A stretch of DNA of 34,339 nt. Source: a virus. Taxonomy: Duplodnaviria > Heunggongvirae > Uroviricota > Caudoviricetes. Shown here piece after piece: positions 1,706-22,159 of the stretch. Positions within the stretch are counted from its first letter, which is position 1; every line of letters starts with the position of its first letter. The notes under the pieces were generated by a model. It saw only the letters and a list, made by a program, of their open reading frames with translations, did not search any database and was not told the origin of the DNA. The DNA lies in IMG/VR virus record IMGVR_UViG_2648501437_000013. One strand, written 5' to 3'. The position numbers and the translations under genes were made by a program.

Positions 1706-2299
1706 CTAAGCAGCCTTCTTTGATGGTCTTTTTTTCCTGACCACATTCGCAGGATCATACCCTCCCAGACTTTTCATGACGTCCAAAGGGATCTTGCTTA
1801 TAGAGTGCCCAGCGTCCTGACAGAATCCTCGAAAAACAACGAGCATACTGCCACCGGGGTTGATGTTTACTTCTACCTGACCCAAATTGACGTCAGGCTC
1901 GACAAACGCTACGCGGCCACCAGACAGAATAATCGTCTCATTCGCATACTCTGTTGCACGCTCATACCACTTTGTATCGAGGGATTGAGGAATTAGAATC
2001 ACTGTTGTAACTCCGCGAGCCTGCTCACGTATAGCAGCATCAATCCAGGGGGAGATTTTGGAGTAGGGTGGATTGAGGAAGGCAATTGTACCTGGCTGTC
2101 CCCATTCAGATTTCAAAGCATCACGCTCAATGCCTATGAAATTAGGCAGCTTTGCGTTGTCCTTGTTGCAGGCAACGTCAACATCAAATGTCACTCCAAG
2201 ATAACGTTGAATGGCAGAAAACAGCCAATCAGGTGTTCTCCAGAGGTCACGAAGAGAGTTGTCGCGCTTTCGCTGTTTGATTTTTTCGGCTGCAATCAT
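1706..2299 (-). CDS. DNA N6-adenine methyltransferase, phage Dam family
   Basis: WRTPDWLF, FDVDVACN and FLNPPYS motifs typical of the phage N6-adenine MTase family (NPPY catalytic motif). Confidence 0.8.
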   Translation of the reverse strand: MIAAEKIKQRKRDNSLRDLWRTPDWLFSAIQRYLGVTFDVDVACNKDNAKLPNFIGIERDALKSEWGQPGTIAFLNPPYSKISPWIDAAIREQARGVTTVILIPQSLDTKWYERATEYANETIILSGGRVAFVEPDVNLGQVEVNINPGGSMLVVFRGFCQDAGHSISKIPLDVMKSLGGYDPANVVRKKRPSKKAA

Positions 2300-3450: not shown

Positions 3451-3998
3451 TACACAATTTCAGAGGGTAATTTAAAAAATCCGTACTTATTACGTGCCTT
3501 AAAGAAGCATTGCATCATTAAGTTTGTGTCATATAAGGCACTATGTGCTTTGGCATGATCGTATATAAAGCCAAGAGAGAAGGCCAACTCTTCAAGGCGG
3601 GGACGTTTACCGTCTTCTGTGGCCCACAGGGAAAATAGAGTGTCAATCAATGGGATGTCTGGAAGCGAAAAACCGTAACTTTTCAGCTCATGCCTAATAA
3701 ACGGAATATCGAACGCTTCGCCGTTGTGGGCTATCCAAATATCGGAAGAAGAGAGATACGAAGCGACAGATGAAGCGTGATCGGCTAGTAACGGCTCGGC
3801 GGCTAAATCTTCAAGACTGATGCCGTGTACCGCTTGCGCTTTCGGATCGATACTGCGACGCGGGTTGAACCGCATTACAAAACTATCAACCATTGTCTGT
3901 GTCTCAATTTCGTACTTCACCATTGCGATTTCAATGATTTTATGGCCTGAGAGGAAATCAAGACCTGTTGATTCGATGTCCACCCCTGTAGCAATCAC
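3450..3998 (-). CDS. DnaQ-like DEDDh 3'-5' exonuclease (Pol III epsilon-like proofreading exonuclease)
   Basis: Exo I (VDIESTGL), Exo II (HNGEAFDIPF) and Exo III (HSALYD) motifs in canonical order. Confidence 0.75.
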   Translation of the reverse strand: MIATGVDIESTGLDFLSGHKIIEIAMVKYEIETQTMVDSFVMRFNPRRSIDPKAQAVHGISLEDLAAEPLLADHASSVASYLSSSDIWIAHNGEAFDIPFIRHELKSYGFSLPDIPLIDTLFSLWATEDGKRPRLEELAFSLGFIYDHAKAHSALYDTNLMMQCFFKARNKYGFFKLPSEIV

Positions 3999-4789
3999 TT
4001 TTTATCTCCTTTTACTGGTCGTTTGGACGGTGTGAAGATGGCAGCTTCAACATCCCACCCCCTCAAAATTCGCTGCGAGATAATGGTCGCAGTCAAGCCA
4101 ACCTCTCTAGCCCATTCGGTAATTCGCTGAGTTCTGCCGCGACACTCGATCAGACGCTTACTATCTCGGTTGGCATACGTGTCGACGCTGGCGTTAAGCG
4201 CGCGATCTAATGGCCACCCTTTCTTGATTCGATAGTGAAGAGTTGATGTCTGAATCCCGGCTCTTTTAGCCCATTGTGAGAGAGTCAGCTTTTCCCCCTT
4301 ATGCTCCAAAATTAAGTTTGAACGCGTGTTATTGGCCTGTTCTTCAAAAGTCGCCCATCTGCAATTTTCAGGTTCGTAGTCACCATTCACATCTTTGCGA
4401 TCAAGAGACATCCCCTCTGGTCGCTCTCCCATGTCAGCATAAAAGTTTTCAAATATTTGCCACCGCTCGCAGACTTTGATACCTCGGCCGCCATACCACT
4501 TATAGGCGTGATGGGTTGGTTTTTCACATCGTTCCCGCATACCCAGCCATATACGATAAATTGGCGTTTTACTCATACCATGAGGCTTTACGCTACGGCG
4601 ATGTGCGTTGTAGACACAGCCACACGATATTGTCGCCCCGTGATTTAGCTTCCCGTAACTAACCAGGCAGGTGTTGCCGCAATCGCAGATGCAATCCCAA
4701 AGTCGCCCTTGTTTGTTTGAAATACCGGAATATTTAAGTGCAACCAACTTTCCAAAACGTTTACCTGTTATGTCTACCGGTTGTCCCAT
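3995..4789 (-). CDS. HNH-like (degenerate) homing-endonuclease-like DNA-binding protein with N-terminal Cys cluster and two C-terminal HTH-like repeats
   Basis: Cys-rich N-terminus (CICDCG...SCGC); YGGRGIKVCERW and LDRKDVNGDYEPENCRWATFEEQANN resemble the NxRWAT..EN tail of HNH_3-type endonucleases; repeats LTLSQWAKRAGIQTSTLHYRIKKGW and QRITEWAREVGLTATIISQRILRGW look like HTH modules. Function assignment from memory only. Confidence 0.45.
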   Translation of the reverse strand: MGQPVDITGKRFGKLVALKYSGISNKQGRLWDCICDCGNTCLVSYGKLNHGATISCGCVYNAHRRSVKPHGMSKTPIYRIWLGMRERCEKPTHHAYKWYGGRGIKVCERWQIFENFYADMGERPEGMSLDRKDVNGDYEPENCRWATFEEQANNTRSNLILEHKGEKLTLSQWAKRAGIQTSTLHYRIKKGWPLDRALNASVDTYANRDSKRLIECRGRTQRITEWAREVGLTATIISQRILRGWDVEAAIFTPSKRPVKGDKK

Positions 4790-4798
4790 TACTACTCC

Positions 4799-5218: not shown

Positions 5219-5279
5219 TTTTTATCCTTAACCCATTTTGAGAGTTTTATTGTCGCAATGTAGAAGAGGCGAACAATTT

Positions 5280-5924
5280 CTAATGAACGGTCACTCGGCC
5301 ACAGAACCGGTTTTCTATCTTTTCTACAGCGTTATCTAGCATTCTCATCACTGATCTGGCTCTTGCTTCAACCGTGCGATATCGGTTGGAAACGACGAAG
5401 GTTTGCAGATCTCCCCTTTGCGGATGCAGGTGAATTTTTGTCAGTTCCCCGCACATCAACGCATCAATACGAGCAACATACAGACGGTCTAATGATGCTC
5501 GTTGTGATCGCAAGTAATCTCGCTCTGAGAGAGCGACTCCCGGGCGTAAGCCAGCAATGGCGTTAAAGTTTGAAATGGCAGTTTTGTGGCAAAACTTTTC
5601 GATATCGAGGGCTAACTCAATACACCGCTCTTCATTTGTATGGCCGACCAAATCCAACGTGTAGGCCATAACATCAGCAGGTGTGCGATCGATAACAAAG
5701 CCTTCAACACCACGCGTAAGTAGCTCTATGTGCTTTGCTATTTCCATTTGAATCTGAAGCCGCTCATATAGAGGCATAGACTCACCTACTCGAACACCGA
5801 GGCGGCTCATCAAACTTCCGACACCAGCATCCACGTAAGGGATTCCGTAATGTTTGTCGATATATTTAGCCAGGGTTGTTTTCCCACTGCCCTGAGCACC
5901 AGTGATCCCAATCCGGTAATCCAT
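5280..5924 (-). CDS. P-loop nucleotide kinase, thymidylate-kinase-like
   Basis: Walker A GAQGSGKTT near N-terminus followed by VIDRTPADVMAYT, resembling the DRY/AYQ region of dTMP kinases; start overlaps the DHFR stop. Confidence 0.5.
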   Translation of the reverse strand: MDYRIGITGAQGSGKTTLAKYIDKHYGIPYVDAGVGSLMSRLGVRVGESMPLYERLQIQMEIAKHIELLTRGVEGFVIDRTPADVMAYTLDLVGHTNEERCIELALDIEKFCHKTAISNFNAIAGLRPGVALSERDYLRSQRASLDRLYVARIDALMCGELTKIHLHPQRGDLQTFVVSNRYRTVEARARSVMRMLDNAVEKIENRFCGRVTVH

Positions 5925-6400
5925 TACGACCTTCTGTATACGATCTGCGAAAAGCCAGGCTCTTCCTCGCTGGCTCGTTGGGTATAAGCTGTTTCAACAG
6001 ACACAAAGCCTAAGTTACGCATCATGCTTGCCGGGAAGAATGCATCAGCGTTTGGTACATCAACGCCGATGTGGGAGAGCCAAATCTCTTCAACATGCGG
6101 CATGAATAGCGAGTAAATTTGTTCCCCGCCAATCACCCACACAGGCTCTGGTAATCGCAACACATCATCCACACCAGCAGGGTAGAATCCATTTGGTACA
6201 AAGCCATGAGAGCGCGTCAAAACGAGATTATGACGCTCTGGAAGAGGGCGTTTGAGACTTTCCATCGTTTTACGTCCCATAACGACAGTGGCGTTTTTGG
6301 TGAGTCTCTTAAATAGCTTCAGATCGGTAGAGCAACGCCAGGGCAGTTCGTTCGCTATACCGATCTCATAATTACGGCCAACAGCAGCTATCATCTTCAT
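5924..6400 (-). CDS. folA: Dihydrofolate reductase
   Basis: 158 aa; IAAVGRNYEIG...LPW, GRKT, VIGGEQIY motifs; GAGGTG RBS; sits next to thyA as in phage dTMP modules. Confidence 0.8.
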   Translation of the reverse strand: MKMIAAVGRNYEIGIANELPWRCSTDLKLFKRLTKNATVVMGRKTMESLKRPLPERHNLVLTRSHGFVPNGFYPAGVDDVLRLPEPVWVIGGEQIYSLFMPHVEEIWLSHIGVDVPNADAFFPASMMRNLGFVSVETAYTQRASEEEPGFSQIVYRRS

Positions 6401-17214: not shown

Positions 17215-17324
17215 GTGTTTTTCCTTTGTGGTTATTTGATACAAATCTTAAGCTTGCTCGAGAGGTGAGCAACCAAGACAGCACGGCACAGAAGAACATC
17301 AACAGGCATAGTATTACAAAATAA

Positions 17325-17344
17325 ATAGGTAAGTGAATACCTAC
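17325..17344. promoter_or_regulatory. Palindrome ATAGGTAAGTGAATACCTAC in the divergent AT-rich region upstream of sbcD
   Basis: Arms TAGGTA/TACCTA; same motif family as 2311..2330. Confidence 0.45.
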
Positions 17345-17466
17345 CAAAATTGTTGAATGGATTGCTTACAAGGCGGCTAGAGTTTCATTGAAGTGCTTAG
17401 ATGTATATGGTAGGCAAAAGTCTCATCGTTACATATGAATGAACTATCTCATGGGTCATGTATCAT

Positions 17467-17500
17467 TTGATATTTTTATTATCAACAATTACTGTATAAG
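17467..17500 (+). promoter_or_regulatory. Candidate sigma70-like promoter for the plus-strand 85-aa gene (TTGATA ... TGtATAAG)
   Basis: TTGATA at 17467 and TATAAG at 17495 in an AT-rich tract; spacer is non-optimal, so weak. Confidence 0.25.
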
Positions 17501-17535
17501 AGGAATTTTCCAAATTGAAAAAGGATTGATTATCA

Positions 17536-17793
17536 ATGGCTATTGATGAAAGAAATATTGTTGTTGGTGGATTGTACAAGACCCATACGAATCAAGAACG
17601 GGTCGTTCTAGAAATAAAAGATGATGAAGTGAAATACGCTCCTCGAGGTGGAAATGTAGAAAATAAATTTGACCATATGCAAAAAGCCAAATTGATCACA
17701 TTTGCAGGAGCATGTTCAGAAAAAATTAAAGATTTACCCTCCGATGAATTTAATAAAATTCGACAACTATTTGTGGATAGAAAACTTATTTAA
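17536..17793 (+). CDS. Hypothetical protein (85 aa) in an AT-rich island, opposite orientation to flanking operons
   Basis: ATG preceded by AAGGA RBS; followed by a plus-strand intrinsic terminator; codon composition visibly more AT-rich than neighbours. Confidence 0.55.
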   Translation: MAIDERNIVVGGLYKTHTNQERVVLEIKDDEVKYAPRGGNVENKFDHMQKAKLITFAGACSEKIKDLPSDEFNKIRQLFVDRKLI

Positions 17794-17884
17794 ATAGTTG
17801 TATTAGTTTTGAGGGTTTGTCTCTTAAAGGATTACCATTACTTGGATGAGTAAATTTTAAACAGGAAAAGTTCTAAAAGCCAAT

Positions 17885-17915
17885 GAGCGCCTATGTAACG
17901 AGCGCTCTTTTTTTG
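17885..17915 (+). terminator. Rho-independent terminator (GAGCGC...GCGCTC + T7)
   Basis: 6-bp GC stem, 11-nt loop, TTTTTTT immediately after on the plus strand only. Confidence 0.7.
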
Positions 17916-17940
17916 TTTGTGGATGGGCCTACTAAACCAT

Positions 17941-18594
17941 TTAAATCGTGTCGGAGGGCTTTTTACGCGCGTTACGCGCTGCGTTTATGCTTATGACGCC
18001 AGCTTTTGGACGTGGGTCAACAAGGTTAAGCTCTTCTTCACTGTGGTATTCGAGGTCGAACTCACGTTTTACATGTCTGATGTAGATTGCGGTGAGCAGG
18101 CTATCTTTGGTTAGGAAGTGTCCGTAGGATTTGCGGATCACTTCTTCTACCTTCTCGATTTTCTCACCCCCCATACAGAGATGATTAAACCGGCTGTGTT
18201 TTCGCAACATTTCGTCTACTGGACCTGAGTAAACCTTGTCTACTTTCCCAAAACGGATGATTTTCCCTGTGTCTGCGGATACAAGGCAAATCAGCTTGTC
18301 TGGTGATAAACGATCTCGCCACGTCACACCTGAACGGAGTGTGTTGAAGTAGGGGGCATCCAATCCGATGATCGGTTTACGAAATGCGAGCAATGGAACG
18401 TACCTGATGCAACTGTTTAAATGAAAATTCACACCAGCCTTATCAAGTTTAATTCTGGTTTCGTAGATCGGGCACTTCGCCGCTATACCGCAGATGTCAC
18501 AAAGCAACTTCTGCTTATTCAGGTTGGAATTTGATTCGATAGTGTAGGAGCCGTCTTCAAGACGACGAACCCAGCGCGTGCGTTTTAGATCCAT
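17941..18594 (-). CDS. Hypothetical protein (217 aa), divergent from the replication origin
   Basis: Intact ORF; N-terminal CDICG...C pair; no confident family assignment. Confidence 0.5.
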   Translation of the reverse strand: MDLKRTRWVRRLEDGSYTIESNSNLNKQKLLCDICGIAAKCPIYETRIKLDKAGVNFHLNSCIRYVPLLAFRKPIIGLDAPYFNTLRSGVTWRDRLSPDKLICLVSADTGKIIRFGKVDKVYSGPVDEMLRKHSRFNHLCMGGEKIEKVEEVIRKSYGHFLTKDSLLTAIYIRHVKREFDLEYHSEEELNLVDPRPKAGVISINAARNARKKPSDTI

Positions 18595-18672
18595 ATGTCA
18601 TTTTTCTGTGATTGTTAGCCGAGGCAACGATAACCCACCAGGTGCGCCGAAGGTAGTAAATGCCTGTTTTAA

Positions 18673-18690
18673 TTATTCACATATCCACAG
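18673..18690. promoter_or_regulatory. Two tandem DnaA-box-like 9-mers (TTATTCACA, ATATCCACA)
   Basis: Each matches TTATNCACA at 8/9 positions; located just upstream of the GATC cluster and iterons. Confidence 0.55.
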
Positions 18691-18694
18691 GATA

Positions 18695-18753
18695 GATCCT
18701 AATAAAGAGATCCATAGATAGATCCTTGTATAGATCAAATAAGATCCCCGATC
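18695..18753. promoter_or_regulatory. Cluster of six GATC sites in 59 bp (repeated AGATCC units)
   Basis: GATC at 18695, 18709, 18721, 18733, 18743, 18750; resembles the Dam-methylation-dependent GATC repeats of P1 oriR and oriC. Confidence 0.6.
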
Positions 18754-18793
18754 GCTGTAAGCCGCGCCACGACTGGTCTGAAGCCATGTTCAT

Positions 18794-18895
18794 GTATGCT
18801 ACCAGCGGTAATTGATAGTCTGTCAACGGTTCGCCGTATGCTGCCAACTGTTTTTGGTATGCTGCCAGCGGCAAATCAAGTATGCTGTCAGCGGT
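18794..18895 (+). repeat. Origin-proximal iteron array (about 4 copies of TATGCTGYCAGCGGT, two degenerate)
   Basis: Copies at 18794, 18837 (degenerate), 18858, 18881, directly upstream of the repA start. Confidence 0.75.
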
Positions 18896-18915
18896 TGAAT
18901 GACAAAGGTGTCCAC

Positions 18916-20010
18916 ATGTCCACAAAAAATAAAAAAGGTAAAAATAACAAAGAAGTAGAAGATAATCTCGACAACTTTGAAGAAGGTTCCCTTGAATTGT
19001 ACACAGGGGAACTTGTCCCTAATAGCAACAATACAGTCCAACCAATTGCGTTGATGCGGCTGGGGTTGTTCGTGCCCACGCTCAAGGGGACAAAATACAG
19101 CAAGCGTAACAAGCCAAATGAGATCGATGCTTCAAAGGAGCTTGTTCAGCTCGAAGTAGCCCGTTCTGAAGGTTATTCCGATATCAAGATAACCGGTCCT
19201 CGTCTCGACATGGATCATGATTTCAAAACGTGGGTGGGCGTTGTGCGTTCGCTGGCAGAATACGGCGAACCTAACGGTCGTGTCGAGTTAAGCATCACGA
19301 AATTTGCGAAGTTTTGTGGCTATCCATCGTCACAGATCCGCAAAACACTCCGCGACCGGCTTACAAACAGTCTTTTGAAGATCATGCGTACAACTCTGTC
19401 TTTTCAGAGAACGTATGAAGAAAAGAACGTCGACGGCTCTAACAAGATCTCGCTTCTGATGGTGCACCTCATCAATAGCGTGGACTACAACGAGCAGAAA
19501 GATACGGTGGTGTTCTATGCAGAACCGAAGCTGGCCGAACTATATCGCTTTGACCATAAAGTTCTTTTGCAGTTAAAGGTTATCAATAAGCTACCACGCA
19601 AAGAAACAGCACAGGCTCTGTACACCTTCATCGAAAGTCTTCCAACCAAGCCTGCGCCGGTATCGCTTGCTCGATTACGTGCGCGACTCAATTTGAGTAG
19701 CAGGAATGTCAGCTCGCAGAATCAGACTATACGTAACGGCTTAAAAGCTCTCCAAGATTTGGGCTATCTCGAATACAGCGAGATTAAGCGAGGGCGGTCG
19801 ATCTATATCCAGATTCACAGCCGCAATCCAAAACTCAAAGTCGCACCGCCAAAACCTGAAGACATCGAACCCAAAAAACCAGATGAGAAAGCTGGGGAAA
19901 TTGATGCCAAACAGAACATTATCAACAAGATAACCGAACTTTCGCAGAATTTGACGCCTGAAAATATCAAGATGATTGAGATCCTTTCCAATAGTCTCAA
20001 ACTGCTTTGA
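18916..20010 (+). CDS. repA: Replication initiator RepA (P1 RepA / RepFIB-type)
   Basis: Recalled similarity to P1 RepA (NSNNTVQPIALMRLGLFVP, DIKITGPRLDMDHDFKTW, YTFIESLP, HSRNPKLK); start moved to ATG 18916 (AAAGG RBS) because the track start reads through the iterons. Confidence 0.85.
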   Translation: MSTKNKKGKNNKEVEDNLDNFEEGSLELYTGELVPNSNNTVQPIALMRLGLFVPTLKGTKYSKRNKPNEIDASKELVQLEVARSEGYSDIKITGPRLDMDHDFKTWVGVVRSLAEYGEPNGRVELSITKFAKFCGYPSSQIRKTLRDRLTNSLLKIMRTTLSFQRTYEEKNVDGSNKISLLMVHLINSVDYNEQKDTVVFYAEPKLAELYRFDHKVLLQLKVINKLPRKETAQALYTFIESLPTKPAPVSLARLRARLNLSSRNVSSQNQTIRNGLKALQDLGYLEYSEIKRGRSIYIQIHSRNPKLKVAPPKPEDIEPKKPDEKAGEIDAKQNIINKITELSQNLTPENIKMIEILSNSLKLL

Positions 20011-20542
20011 TATGCTGTCAGCGGTGAAATGTATGCTATCAGCGGCTATTTTTCTGAAAAGTATGCTGTGAACGGTTAAAGATATGCTACCAGCGGTATA
20101 GTGAGATAAACGTATGCTGTGAGCGGTAAATCATCTATCACCACTCAATGCTCTGGCATACCTCCCCAGTGGTTACTAACCTCGAAGAGTGCATTCCATA
20201 TAGGTTTGCGCTCACTAACATTCTATTGCCGTTGCGCTGATTGCTTGTAGTGAAAGGCATTTATTGCCTGCTGCTCCCTGATAGAACGTATGCTGTCAGC
20301 GGTGTTTTATTGAGGAATTTTTGTTTGGATATGCTATCAGCGGTAATTAATGGTATATGTCAGACCTTCGTATGCTGCCAGCGGTAATTTTGTTCTGGTT
20401 ATACCCATACCGGTACACATTATTCATGCAATGTCTTAAGTATGCTGTCAGCGGTAAAAAATCGAGTAAAGTATGCTGTGAGCGGTGAGATAAACTCTCG
20501 ATATGCTATCAGCGGTAATTGATTGTGTATGCTGTCAGCGGT
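20011..20542 (+). repeat. Downstream iteron array, 12 copies of TATGCT(G/A)(T/C)(C/G)A(G/A)CGG(T/C) in two groups (5 + 7) separated by a ~160-bp spacer
   Basis: Copies at 20011, 20032, 20062, 20083, 20113, 20289, 20330, 20371, 20441, 20472, 20503, 20528, all in the same orientation; position matches a P1 incA-like copy-control locus. Confidence 0.8.
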
Positions 20543-20558
20543 GACGACTATGAAATAT

Positions 20559-20580
20559 GACTGCGGCACGTGCCGCAGTC
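20559..20580. terminator. Perfect 22-bp palindrome GACTGCGGCACGTGCCGCAGTC
   Basis: Read directly; sits between the iteron array and the stop of minus gene 20590..20802; no strong T-run, so it may be a protein-binding site rather than a terminator. Confidence 0.4.
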
Positions 20581-20589
20581 AGTTTGCAT

Positions 20590-20802
20590 TTAGTGTATTT
20601 TCTTTAACAGACCCCAAAGTGTTCCGGCTTTTGTAGTCAGTTTTCCTGTTTCTGGATCGTACATACGCCATTCACGCCGCTGGTGGACGATATACCCATC
20701 TTCACGTTCCAGACGCTCAAGAATGCCAGGCTGCTTGAAACCCTTAGCACGCCAGTAGCCGCTTGTTTTCTCGATTTCCAGACCTGCCAGTGTTAATGCC
20801 AT
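20590..20802 (-). CDS. Hypothetical protein (70 aa)
   Basis: Intact ORF translationally coupled to the upstream gene. Confidence 0.4.
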   Translation of the reverse strand: MALTLAGLEIEKTSGYWRAKGFKQPGILERLEREDGYIVHQRREWRMYDPETGKLTTKAGTLWGLLKKIH

Positions 20803-22109: not shown

Positions 22110-22159
22110 GTTTTCTTATCCTTTTAAACAAATTGTTTTCTTAATAAGATAATTGCGAT

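What the first reader, a model, noticed from the sequence alone, without database searches (positions are those of the whole stretch)
18660..20580. Complete P1-type iteron replicon inside a phage DNA-metabolism module (phage-plasmid signature)
A plus-strand repA resembling P1 RepA is flanked by about 4 upstream and 12 downstream 15-bp iterons (TATGCTGTCAGCGGT), preceded by two DnaA-box-like 9-mers and six GATC sites in 59 bp. This copies the P1 oriR / repA / incA layout, yet it sits between sbcCD and virion-independent replication genes of a lytic-type module on the opposite strand. The element can therefore probably replicate as a low-copy plasmid as well as a phage. The downstream array is split 5 + 7 by a ~160-bp spacer of unknown role.
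Basis: partly seen in the sequence, partly recalled or inferred. Interest (0 to 1): 0.7.

Follow-up and report, generated by a model that had tools for sequence, protein, structure and literature searches.

The report
Known P1-type plasmid replicon in phage-plasmid

Summary
A 364-aa RepA gene (18916-20010) is flanked by 17 same-strand iterons (TATGCTGTCAGCGGT): 5 upstream at 21-23 bp spacing and 5 + 7 downstream. Upstream lie two tandem DnaA boxes and six GATC sites in 59 bp.

RepA is 43.5% identical to P1/P7 RepA (E 2e-64), matches Pfam Rep3_N, and its model matches RepE and RctB folds. The DnaA-box/GATC/GC-rich origin core is 68% identical in nucleotides to P1 oriR.

It is not new. The 2-kb region is 98-99% identical to about 120 non-mobilizable E. 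coli, Shigella and E. albertii plasmids of mostly 100-115 kb, and to Escherichia phages PhiR41_1 and CMS-2020a. Its position between sbcCD and the SPFH/RecA genes is the same as in SSU5. The SSU5 phage-plasmid supercommunity is published and typed IncFIB.

The ~160-bp "spacer" is not filler. It holds a single-copy ~60-bp element: two GTTAGTrnnnAC boxes 39-40 bp apart. The element is conserved in SSU5, Yersinia pMT1, and Pantoea and Rahnella plasmids, but is inverted here relative to SSU5 and absent from P1 and F RepFIB. Its function is unknown; mini-ORF, RNA-hairpin and dif/cer readings were rejected.

The parts
18673..18689 (+). Two tandem DnaA boxes (TTATTCACA, ATATCCACA) at the left edge of the origin.
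   Evidence: Each is 1 mismatch from TTATCCACA. They are conserved in four genera and align with the tandem DnaA boxes of P1 oriR.
18695..18753 (.). Cluster of six GATC (Dam) sites in a 63% A+T stretch, mostly in the context (A/T)AGATCC. This is the presumed unwinding and sequestration region.
   Evidence: All six are invariant in relatives. They are homologous to the five annotated Dam sites of P1 oriR.
18761..18776 (+). Conserved GC-rich block GCCGCGCCACGACTGG between the GATC cluster and the iterons.
   Evidence: Nearly invariant in relatives and shared with P1 oriR (GCCGCGCCACGTCTGG).
18795..18895 (+). Five origin iterons (equivalent to P1 incC), with start-to-start spacing of 21, 21, 21 and 23 bp.
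   Evidence: The same number and spacing occur in Klebsiella, Salmonella, Cronobacter, Enterobacter and E. albertii relatives.
18904..18924 (+). Shine-Dalgarno AAAGG, followed by two weak DnaA-box-like 9-mers (GTGTCCACA, ATGTCCACA) that overlap the repA ATG at 18916.
   Evidence: Read from the sequence and conserved. P1 has a DnaA box at the equivalent place, just upstream of repA.
18916..20010 (+). repA, encoding a 364-aa Rep_3-family iteron-binding initiator.
   Evidence: Pfam Rep3_N E 3.9e-9. P1/P7 RepA 43.5% identity, E 2e-64; SSU5 RepA 47.9%. PHROG 775 E 4.6e-133. The AlphaFold model (pLDDT about 80-90 for most of residues 71-310, dipping to 52-54 at 211-230) matches RctB domains 2-3, RepE and a WH1 domain.
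20011..20127 (+). Downstream control iterons, cluster 1 (5 copies). The first starts immediately after the repA stop codon.
20163..20223 (-). Conserved bipartite spacer element. Box A is ATGTTAGTGAGCGCAAACC (20203-20221) and box B is GGTTAGTAACCACTGGG (20165-20181), separated by a 21-nt linker. Function unknown.
20289..20542 (+). Downstream control iterons, cluster 2 (7 copies).
   Evidence: The copy number is polymorphic: 4 in phage PhiR41_1, and 4-6 in other genera.
20558..20581 (.). 10-bp GC-rich hairpin (TGACTGCGGCAC/GTGCCGCAGTCA). It is terminator-like on both strands and closes the replicon against the convergent leftward operon.
   Evidence: (I2).

Best explanation
This is the plasmid-prophage replicon of an SSU5-like E. 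coli phage-plasmid of the pECOH89/AnCo type. It is a theta-type, iteron-controlled, low-copy replicon of the P1 RepA / RepFIB family.

Shown here: the sequence anatomy, the homology to P1, and the identity with known phage-plasmids.

Inferred from P1 and RepFIB biology:
- RepA monomers occupy the five 21-bp-phased origin iterons.
- Host DnaA binds the tandem boxes at the left edge, and possibly the weak boxes at the repA start.
- Together they open the adjacent A+T-rich stretch that carries the six GATC sites.
- Methylation of those sites (by the host Dam or the element's own Dam) and their hemimethylated state after firing couple initiation to the cell cycle.
- RepA bound at the origin iterons is expected to repress its own promoter.
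- The 12 downstream iterons titrate RepA and pair with the origin ("handcuffing"), which holds copy number low and determines incompatibility.

The surrounding minus-strand genes are the phage's own DNA-metabolism module: nrdAB, thyA, DHFR, sbcCD, RecA, SSB and DnaE.
For: Anatomy.

RepA homology and fold.

Comparison with the annotated P1 oriR/incC/repA/incA record: feature-by-feature match, with 67.7% nucleotide identity in the origin core.

Conservation: DnaA boxes, all six GATC sites, five iterons at fixed spacing, the SD sequence and the ATG are conserved across five genera.

Identity with known elements:
- 143 plasmid records match, of which 118 cover at least 80% of the query and 122 are at least 95% identical. 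136 are non-mobilizable. In the four matching records examined, the only replicon type listed is rep_cluster_488.
- Three phage records match.
- The window is colinear with pEC881_2 at 97-99% identity over 32 of 34.3 kb. That plasmid carries tail, tape-measure, capsid, portal and terminase genes.
- Synteny is the same as in SSU5.

Literature:
- pECOH89 RepA is 48% identical to pLF82 RepA (PMC3999498). That is the value found here against Cyrano/pLF82.
- The SSU5 supercommunity is typed IncFIB (PMC7969092).
- The SSU5-like phage-plasmid Cyrano is kept at about 5.5 copies per chromosome and makes virions on induction (PMC9928086).
- In RepFIB, the downstream iterons alone displace the replicon, while the upstream ones do not (PMC11983097).
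Against: Nothing here tests function. Autonomous replication, dependence on DnaA and Dam, and incompatibility are all inferred.

No sigma-70 consensus promoter for repA was found on the plus strand in 18550-18916, so autorepression through iteron occupancy is by analogy only.

Unlike P1, all 12 downstream iterons point the same way, and the partition genes are not adjacent to the replicon.

RepA has no sequence-level hit in the PDB, and the fold matches have modest TM-scores of 0.25-0.5.
Confidence: 0.9

Rival explanations
1. The replicon is a relic. The element is maintained by another replicon or only as a lytic phage, and the repeats are inert.
For: One E. coli SSU5-like phage-plasmid could not be induced (PMC9600943), which shows that not every part of such elements is active. 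SSU5 itself was described as a virulent phage (abstract of PMC5427195).
Against: RepA is intact and nearly identical in more than 100 circular plasmids. The iteron number and spacing at the origin, the DnaA boxes and all GATC sites are conserved across genera that have diverged to about 78% nucleotide identity. PLSDB lists no other replicon type in the four matching records examined. No second rep gene appears in the annotation of pEC881_2.
Confidence: 0.04
2. The direct repeats flanking repA are phage attachment (att) sites of an integrated or excisable module, as annotated in the Klebsiella phage pJN2-26 record.
For: The pJN2-26 record labels a 20-bp repeat on each side of repA as attR and attL.
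Against: Those two features fall exactly on members of arrays of 5 and 8 identical iterons. There are 17 copies here, phased at 21 bp upstream, in the canonical position for Rep_3 initiator binding. No integrase is adjacent to the replicon.
Confidence: 0.01
3. For the spacer only: the conserved ~60-bp element is a functional accessory cis-site of the copy-control region. It would be a pair of same-face binding sites for RepA in its non-iteron (dimer) mode or for a host architectural protein, possibly with a bend between them. Such a site could fold or organise the two iteron clusters for handcuffing.
For: - It is conserved well above its flanks across E. coli, Salmonella, Klebsiella, Cronobacter, Yersinia pMT1, Kluyvera, Rahnella, Pantoea and Erwiniaceae.
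- It is always 150-900 bp downstream of repA, within or beside the downstream iterons.
- It is single-copy in the 109-kb plasmid.
- Box-to-box spacing is fixed at 39-40 bp.
- It persists in replicons whose iterons and RepA differ, so it is independent of iteron specificity.
- The genes downstream of it are unrelated cargo in the different plasmids, so RepA is the only common partner.
- In several Pantoea and Erwinia variants the linker resembles the IHF core WATCAANNNNTTR; the match is perfect in L191.
Against: - It is absent from P1, a p0111-type P1 relative, F RepFIB and about 60 of 80 related RepA loci. These include some with SSU5-type iterons and one Klebsiella locus with window-type iterons, so it is dispensable.
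- The IHF-like match is poor in the window's own variant.
- No binding protein is identified.
- The palindromic right arms are degenerate.
Confidence: 0.35
4. For the spacer only: the conserved core is a slowly decaying remnant, for example of ancestral SSU5-type half-iterons. Box B (TAACCACTG...) resembles the left half of the SSU5/Rahnella iteron (T/C)AACCACTGTAG.
For: Box B in the window (GTTAGTAACCACTGGGG) and in Rahnella (GTTAGTAACCACTAGGG) contains AACCACT, which is the left half of SSU5-type iterons. The element is dispensable in many relatives.
Against: The most conserved positions are GTTAGT and the following AC, not the iteron-like centre, which varies freely (AACC, GGTC, GACC, AAGT, ACTC). 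Conservation persists across lineages whose flanks have been completely randomised.
Confidence: 0.25

Closest known systems
Phage-like plasmids pECOH89, p09EL50 and AnCo1/2, and Escherichia phages PhiR41_1 and CMS-2020a (E. coli members of the SSU5 phage-plasmid supergroup)
   Same: The replicon is essentially the same: 98-99% nucleotide identity over the whole 2 kb, the same flanking genes, and RepA 99.5-99.7% identical. RepA is 48% identical to the pLF82/Cyrano RepA, exactly as reported for pECOH89 (PMC3999498).
   Different: Only minor polymorphism. PhiR41_1 has 9 rather than 12 downstream iterons, and there are a few SNPs within iterons.
Bacteriophage P1 plasmid replicon (oriR with incC, repA, incA; IncY)
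   Same: The order of features is the same: tandem DnaA boxes, GATC cluster (P1 has 5, here 6), GC-rich block, five 21-bp-phased iterons, repA, and downstream control iterons that start at the stop codon. RepA is 43.5% identical. The origin core is 67.7% identical in nucleotides.
   Different: - The iteron sequence differs: TATGCTGTCAGCGGT against GATGTGTGCTGGAGGGAAA.
- There are 12 downstream iterons, all direct and in two clusters; P1 has 9, with 6 inverted.
- RepA has about 30 extra N-terminal and 55 extra C-terminal residues.
- parAB is not adjacent.
- A conserved spacer element is present here and absent from P1.
Salmonella phage SSU5 / pHCM2 / Yersinia pMT1 replicon
   Same: The genomic slot is the same (sbcCD - 214-aa hypothetical - ori - repA - iterons - 70-aa gene - ... 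SPFH - RecA). The origin core is homologous (68%). The spacer element is the same.
   Different: RepA is only 48% identical, and the iterons are of a different specificity type (CCACTGTAGAGAG). The second downstream cluster is inverted in SSU5/pMT1, and the spacer element has the opposite orientation. SSU5 has a second, degenerate ori-like block upstream of repA.
RepFIB of F / P307 / pO157
   Same: It has a Rep_3 initiator flanked by upstream origin iterons and downstream control iterons. Experiments show that the downstream block is the incompatibility and copy-control determinant (PMC11983097).
   Different: The RepA is more distant (about 41% to the p0111/RepFIB-type RepA of P1-like phages). 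No spacer element was detected in F RepFIB.

Membership tests
P1 RepA / RepFIB-type iteron replicon (Rep_3 initiators) | The initiator is homologous to P1 RepA / Rep_3 and has a dual winged-helix fold. | tested here: met
   P1/P7 RepA at 43.5% identity, E 2e-64. Pfam Rep3_N at 37.5 bits against a cut-off of 22.4. The model matches RctB domains 2-3, RepE and a WH1 domain with Foldseek probability 1.00.
P1 RepA / RepFIB-type iteron replicon (Rep_3 initiators) | An array of directly repeated initiator-binding sites, phased by whole helical turns, lies immediately upstream of rep. | tested here: met
   Five iterons at 21, 21, 21 and 23 bp, conserved in number and spacing in five genera.
P1 RepA / RepFIB-type iteron replicon (Rep_3 initiators) | DnaA boxes and an A+T-rich, GATC-rich region lie next to the iterons. 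| tested here: met
   Two tandem 1-mismatch DnaA boxes and six GATC sites in 59 bp at 63% A+T. They are conserved and align to P1 oriR.
P1 RepA / RepFIB-type iteron replicon (Rep_3 initiators) | A second iteron array downstream of rep acts as the copy-control and incompatibility locus (incA). | tested here: met
   The sequence feature is present: 12 downstream iterons. Its control function was not tested here; it is inferred from P1 and from RepFIB experiments (PMC11983097).
P1 RepA / RepFIB-type iteron replicon (Rep_3 initiators) | Autonomous replication that depends on RepA, DnaA and Dam, and low copy number. | not testable with these tools
   This needs cloning and genetics. Indirect support: the same replicon is the only typed one in the four matching circular plasmid records examined. 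A related phage-plasmid was measured at about 5.5 copies per chromosome (PMC9928086).
SSU5-supergroup phage-plasmid (pECOH89/AnCo lineage) | Near-identity and colinearity with described members. | tested here: met
   97-99% identity over 32,025 of 34,339 bp to pEC881_2. 98.0% replicon identity to KY515225 and 81% to AnCo3. Synteny is the same as in SSU5.
SSU5-supergroup phage-plasmid (pECOH89/AnCo lineage) | Virion structural and packaging genes are on the same molecule as the plasmid replicon. | tested here: inconclusive
   The 34-kb window holds only DNA-metabolism genes. The colinear relative pEC881_2 carries tail, tape-measure, capsid, portal and terminase genes. The molecule the window comes from cannot itself be seen.
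SSU5-supergroup phage-plasmid (pECOH89/AnCo lineage) | Both lifestyles demonstrated: virions are produced and the element is maintained as a plasmid. | not testable with these tools
   The record of the 98.4%-identical replicon is deposited as a phage with MG1655 as host. Related elements have been induced (PMC9600943, PMC9928086).

The most novel reading that the evidence does not exclude
The ~60-bp element in the "spacer" consists of two GTTAGTrnnnAC boxes 39-40 bp apart. It is single-copy, independent of iteron specificity, and can sit in either orientation. It may be a previously undescribed accessory control or architectural site of one clade of RepA replicons. That clade spans E. coli, Salmonella and Klebsiella phage-plasmids, Yersinia pestis pMT1, and Pantoea, Rahnella and Erwinia large plasmids. 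The element would bind RepA in a non-iteron mode or a host protein, and would organise the two downstream iteron clusters for handcuffing.
Probability: 0.3. Interest if true: 0.45.

Novelty: already known. Interest (0 to 1): 0.2.

Why it matters
The replicon decides whether this phage can persist as a low-copy plasmid. It also decides which other plasmids the element excludes and how typing tools classify it. This matters in practice because pECOH89-type phage-plasmids carry blaCTX-M-15 and other resistance genes. However, the family, its IncFIB-type replicon and its dual lifestyle are all published, so the finding adds no new biology.

The one item that could repay work is the conserved spacer element. 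If it modulates copy control, it would be a new cis-acting component of a replicon class that includes the plague plasmid pMT1.

Tried and rejected
1. Mini-ORF in the spacer (minus strand, MLVSANLYGMHSSRLVTTG...). It looked conserved in 7 phage-plasmid variants, with synonymous-looking changes. It was rejected when deeper homologues showed AAG in place of the start codon in most cases, and a linker of 21 or 22 nt that breaks the frame.

2. RNA hairpins at boxes A and B. There are no compensatory changes in 21 sequences, and the observed pairing is not above the shuffled control. There is no Rfam hit in 18500-20700.

3. dif/cer-type XerCD site. Only ATGTTA resembles the XerD arm, and the would-be XerC arm and central region are not conserved among variants (comparison made by eye against the dif consensus from memory).

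4. P1-type parS, or an operator for a neighbouring gene. There are no ATTTCA heptamers. The downstream genes differ in every plasmid (LacI-family, umuC-like, GNAT, GntR and others). The element occurs nowhere else in the 109-kb plasmid.

5. Tus/Ter, SlmA, MatP, FNR/CRP, GntR and SlyA consensus sites, recalled from memory. None fits the half-site spacing, and none was tested further.

6. repA promoter. The consensus scan found nothing on the plus strand. The candidate TTGATA-19 nt-TATGCT and an extended -10 (TGgTATGCT) are not conserved in relatives.

7. NCBIfam gave no hit for RepA or its three neighbours. A PDB sequence search gave none for RepA.

8. A 2026 bioRxiv preprint on phage-plasmid heteroresistance mentions RepA 41 times and copy number 20 times. 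It could not be opened, so its content is not used here.
Full report
**1. What is in the sequence**

- **Iterons.** The 15-mer TATGCTGTCAGCGGT, with up to 3 mismatches, occurs 17 times on the plus strand between 18795 and 20542. Only 0.73 hits are expected in the whole window.
- **Upstream copies.** Five precede the gene, with start-to-start spacing of 21, 21, 21 and 23 bp, which is two helical turns.
- **Downstream copies.** Twelve follow it, the first beginning at the base after the stop codon. They form clusters of 5 (20011-20127) and 7 (20289-20542).
- **GATC sites.** Six lie in 18695-18753, while no other 59-bp span of the window has more than two. Random placement reaches six in 24 of 20,000 trials.
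- **DnaA boxes.** Two tandem boxes with one mismatch each lie at 18673 and 18681. Two weaker box-like 9-mers overlap the repA ATG at 18916.
- **Terminator.** A 10-bp GC-rich hairpin at 20558-20581 closes the unit.

Everything else is as stated.

**2. The protein**

The 364-aa product of 18916-20010 has several lines of support as an iteron-binding initiator.

- It matches Pfam Rep3_N (E 3.9e-9) and PHROG 775 (E 4.6e-133).
- By tblastn it is 43.5% identical to P1 and P7 RepA over 76% of its length (E 2e-64). It is 47.9% identical to SSU5 and Cyrano/pLF82 RepA, about 85% to Klebsiella phage-plasmid RepA, and 99.5-99.7% to Escherichia phages PhiR41_1 and CMS-2020a.
- A database search finds 477 homologues, all carrying PF01051 and variously named RepB-family, RepA or RepFIB initiators of Enterobacterales plasmids.
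- An AlphaFold model built on 30 homologues is confident for most of residues 71-310. Its best PDB matches are RctB domains 2-3, RepE of F, and an isolated WH1 domain. This is the dual winged-helix fold of iteron initiators.
- There is no sequence-level hit in the PDB.

RefSeq annotates a 404-aa version starting at 18796. That start would place all five origin iterons inside the coding region. The 18916 ATG has a conserved AAAGG Shine-Dalgarno sequence and corresponds to the P1 start, so the 364-aa form is preferred.

**3. Comparison with P1**

The annotated P1 record lists the following, in order: a DnaA site, five Dam sites, five incC iterons overlapping PrepA, repA, and nine incA iterons. 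The window has the same order.

The resemblance goes beyond layout. From the DnaA boxes to the start of the iterons, the two sequences are 67.7% identical in nucleotides (84 of 124 columns). One example is TTATCCACATTATCCACTGGATAGATCC in P1 against TTATTCACATATCCACAGGATAGATCC here. Another is GCCGCGCCACGTCTGG in P1 against GCCGCGCCACGACTGG here.

The differences are:
- the iteron sequence;
- the number (12 against 9) and uniform orientation of the downstream iterons;
- N- and C-terminal extensions of RepA;
- the absence of adjacent parAB;
- the spacer element described in section 6.

**4. What the element is**

- **Database matches.** The 2-kb region matches 143 PLSDB plasmids. Of these, 122 are at least 95% identical, 136 are non-mobilizable, and most are 100-115 kb, from E. 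coli, Shigella and E. albertii. It also matches three phage records.
- **Colinearity.** The whole window is colinear with plasmid pEC881_2 at 97-99% identity over 32.0 of 34.3 kb.
- **Phage genes in the relative.** pEC881_2 carries tail, tape-measure, major capsid, portal and terminase genes. It also has an S24 peptidase-family gene, an integrase, a primase and a DnaB-like helicase. Its only PLSDB replicon type is rep_cluster_488.
- **Synteny.** The gene order sbcC, sbcD, 214-217-aa hypothetical, origin/repA, small genes, SPFH, RecA, 5'-3' exonuclease is that of phage SSU5 and of Yersinia pMT1.
- **Window content.** The window is a DNA-metabolism module: RNase H, Dam, DnaQ-like exonuclease, DHFR, thymidylate synthase, nrdAB, sbcCD, gp32-like SSB, DnaE and CobS/CobT-like proteins.
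- **Literature.** The pECOH89 paper reports a RepA identical to that of p09EL50 and 48% identical to that of pLF82 (PMC3999498), which is exactly the relationship found here. Pfeifer et al. define the SSU5 supercommunity and note that it is typed IncFIB (PMC7969092). A 2025 preprint notes that typing tools include the SSU5 (IncFIB) replication genes (10.1101/2025.09.12.675607). From memory, PlasmidFinder has an entry IncFIB(H89-PhagePlasmid); I could not check this here.

The finding is therefore a correct reading of an already known replicon in an already known family.

**5. How it most likely works**

The anatomy, homology and conservation are shown here. The mechanism below is inferred from P1 and RepFIB.

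- RepA monomers bind the five phased origin iterons.
- DnaA binds the tandem boxes.
- The A+T-rich stretch carrying the GATC sites melts.
- Dam methylation, and sequestration of the hemimethylated sites, time re-initiation.
- RepA on the iterons is expected to repress its own promoter. I could not locate that promoter: the consensus scan found nothing, and the candidates I found are not conserved.
- The downstream iterons titrate RepA and handcuff the origin. For RepFIB this has direct experimental support: the downstream block alone displaces the replicon, while the upstream block does not (PMC11983097).
- A related phage-plasmid, Cyrano, sits at about 5.5 copies per chromosome and yields virions on ciprofloxacin induction (PMC9928086).

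Conservation argues that the unit is under selection. The five-iteron origin with 21-21-21-23 spacing, both DnaA boxes, all six GATC sites, the GC-rich block and the SD/ATG are invariant or nearly so in E. coli, Klebsiella, Salmonella and Cronobacter relatives. The sequence just upstream of the origin is not conserved.

The downstream array is plastic in number: 12 here, 9 in PhiR41_1, 8 in Klebsiella, 11 in Salmonella AnCo3, 12 in Cronobacter and 9 in Enterobacter. It is always bipartite.

**6. The "spacer of unknown role"**

The spacer is not filler. It carries a core of about 60 bp, at 20163-20223 and read on the minus strand:

ATGTTAGTGAGCGCAAACC - 21 nt - GGTTAGTAACCACTGGGG

*Conservation and distribution*
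- The core is conserved in Salmonella, Cronobacter and Enterobacter relatives whose flanking spacer sequence has diverged.
- It is shared with SSU5, where it lies in the opposite orientation relative to repA.
- In a scan of viral contigs with box B, 86 of the 120 loci returned also carry box A at the right distance. Together with the earlier loci these fall into 7 sequence variants.
- The element is single-copy in the 109-kb plasmid.
- A profile search of 80 diverse RepA loci from genomes finds it in 19. These are Yersinia pestis pMT1, Kluyvera and Buttiauxella (SSU5-like, plus orientation), and Rahnella, Pantoea, Erwiniaceae and an unclassified enterobacterial contig (minus orientation). The latter group sit on contigs from a few kb to 468 kb, whose flanking genes are P1-type parA and assorted cargo rather than phage genes.
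- It always lies 150-900 bp downstream of repA.
- It is absent from P1, a p0111-type P1 relative, F RepFIB and about 60 of the 80 loci. The loci without it include some with SSU5-type iterons and one Klebsiella locus with window-type iterons.

*Architecture*
- In SSU5, pMT1, Pantoea and Rahnella the usual layout is: origin iterons (forward), repA, cluster 1 (forward), element, cluster 2 (mostly inverted).
- In the window's lineage cluster 2 is direct and the element is flipped.
- The invariant positions are two direct GTTAGT(R)nnn(Y)AC boxes 39-40 bp apart. Box A is often extended to a palindrome, GTTAGT-N4-ACTAAC.

*Readings tested and rejected*
- A mini-ORF: the start codon and reading frame are not conserved.
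- RNA hairpins: there are no compensatory changes in 21 sequences, and no Rfam hit.
- A dif/cer site.
- A parS site, or an operator for a neighbouring gene.

*What remains*
Two readings remain. One is an accessory protein-binding or architectural site of the control region, bound by RepA in a non-iteron mode or by a host factor; some variants have an IHF-like core in the linker. The other is a slowly decaying relic related to half-iterons. I rate these at about 0.35 and 0.25. I found no description of the element in the papers I could search, but much of the older literature on pMT1, RepFIB and P1 is not in the library.

**7. Verdict**

- Novelty: already known. The replicon is 98-99% identical to that of more than 100 deposited plasmids, which belong to a published, IncFIB-typed phage-plasmid family.
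- Interest is low (0.2).
- The residual novelty is the spacer element: probability about 0.3 that it is a functional, undescribed cis-element, with interest of about 0.45 if true.

Noticed in passing
window 1706-2299 (-): The element encodes its own Dam-family N6-adenine methyltransferase (Pfam PF05869, E 4e-37), while its plasmid origin carries six conserved GATC sites. The phage-plasmid may therefore control the methylation state of its own origin independently of host Dam.
   Followed up: no
window 18796-20010 vs 18916-20010: RefSeq/PGAP records annotate RepA as 404 aa, starting at an ATG inside the first origin iteron. Phage records use the 364-aa start. The shorter form has a conserved SD sequence and matches the P1 start, so the long form is probably a mis-annotation propagated across hundreds of records.
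   Followed up: partly
L005 (Klebsiella phage pJN2-26) 1378-1397 and 2648-2667: The GenBank record labels two RepA iterons as phage attachment sites attR and attL. They are members of arrays of 5 and 8 iterons.
   Followed up: yes
L004 (SSU5) 5240-5500 and 5630-5945: SSU5 has two tandem ori-like blocks upstream of repA. The distal block has good DnaA boxes, five GATC sites and iterons (68% identical to the window core). The block next to repA has largely lost its GATC sites (47% identical).
   Followed up: partly
window 20441-20527 vs L002 (PhiR41_1): The number of downstream iterons is polymorphic among near-identical elements. PhiR41_1 lacks three iterons through an 87-bp deletion whose ends lie in two iterons. 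Other genera have 8-12.
   Followed up: yes
window 17941-18594 (-): A 217-aa protein of unknown function (PHROG 2105, E 4e-131; no Pfam or NCBIfam hit) is encoded divergently, right next to the origin. It is in this position in every SSU5-like element examined, including pMT1. It contains a Cys-rich stretch (CDICGIAAKC...). It could be replicon-associated.
   Followed up: partly
window 19897-20010 (RepA residues 328-363): RepA has a C-terminal two-helix extension, modelled with pLDDT of about 80-85, after a disordered Pro/Lys/Glu-rich linker. P1 RepA (286 aa) lacks it. SSU5 RepA also carries a C-terminal extension.
   Followed up: no
window 3629-4793, 17253-17971 and the junction near 22116-22128: These are the only places where the window is not colinear with pEC881_2. 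Two are replaced segments; one holds a unique 85-aa ORF at 17536-17793 with no PHROG hit. At the third, pEC881_2 has about 2 kb extra. They look like small variable cargo slots within the DNA-metabolism module.
   Followed up: no
plasmid hits H5-H11, H13 and H72: E. albertii plasmids of about 62 kb, and E. coli plasmids of 72-76 kb, carry the identical replicon (99% identity). They are probably deletion derivatives that have lost much of the phage genome but are still maintained by this replicon.
   Followed up: no
PHROG 775 and RefSeq P1/P7/SSU5 records: RepA homologues are named 'replication helicase' in PHROGs and in several RefSeq phage records. They are Rep_3 origin-binding initiators, not helicases.
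   Followed up: no
iteron consensus, window vs P1: The window iteron core TATGCTGTCAGCGG resembles the P1 iteron core TGTGCTGGAGGG (TGCTG ... AG.GG) with a 2-bp insertion. SSU5-type iterons (CCACTGTAGAGAG) do not. This suggests that iteron specificity in this lineage is closer to P1 than RepA identity alone implies. This is an observation by eye only.
   Followed up: no
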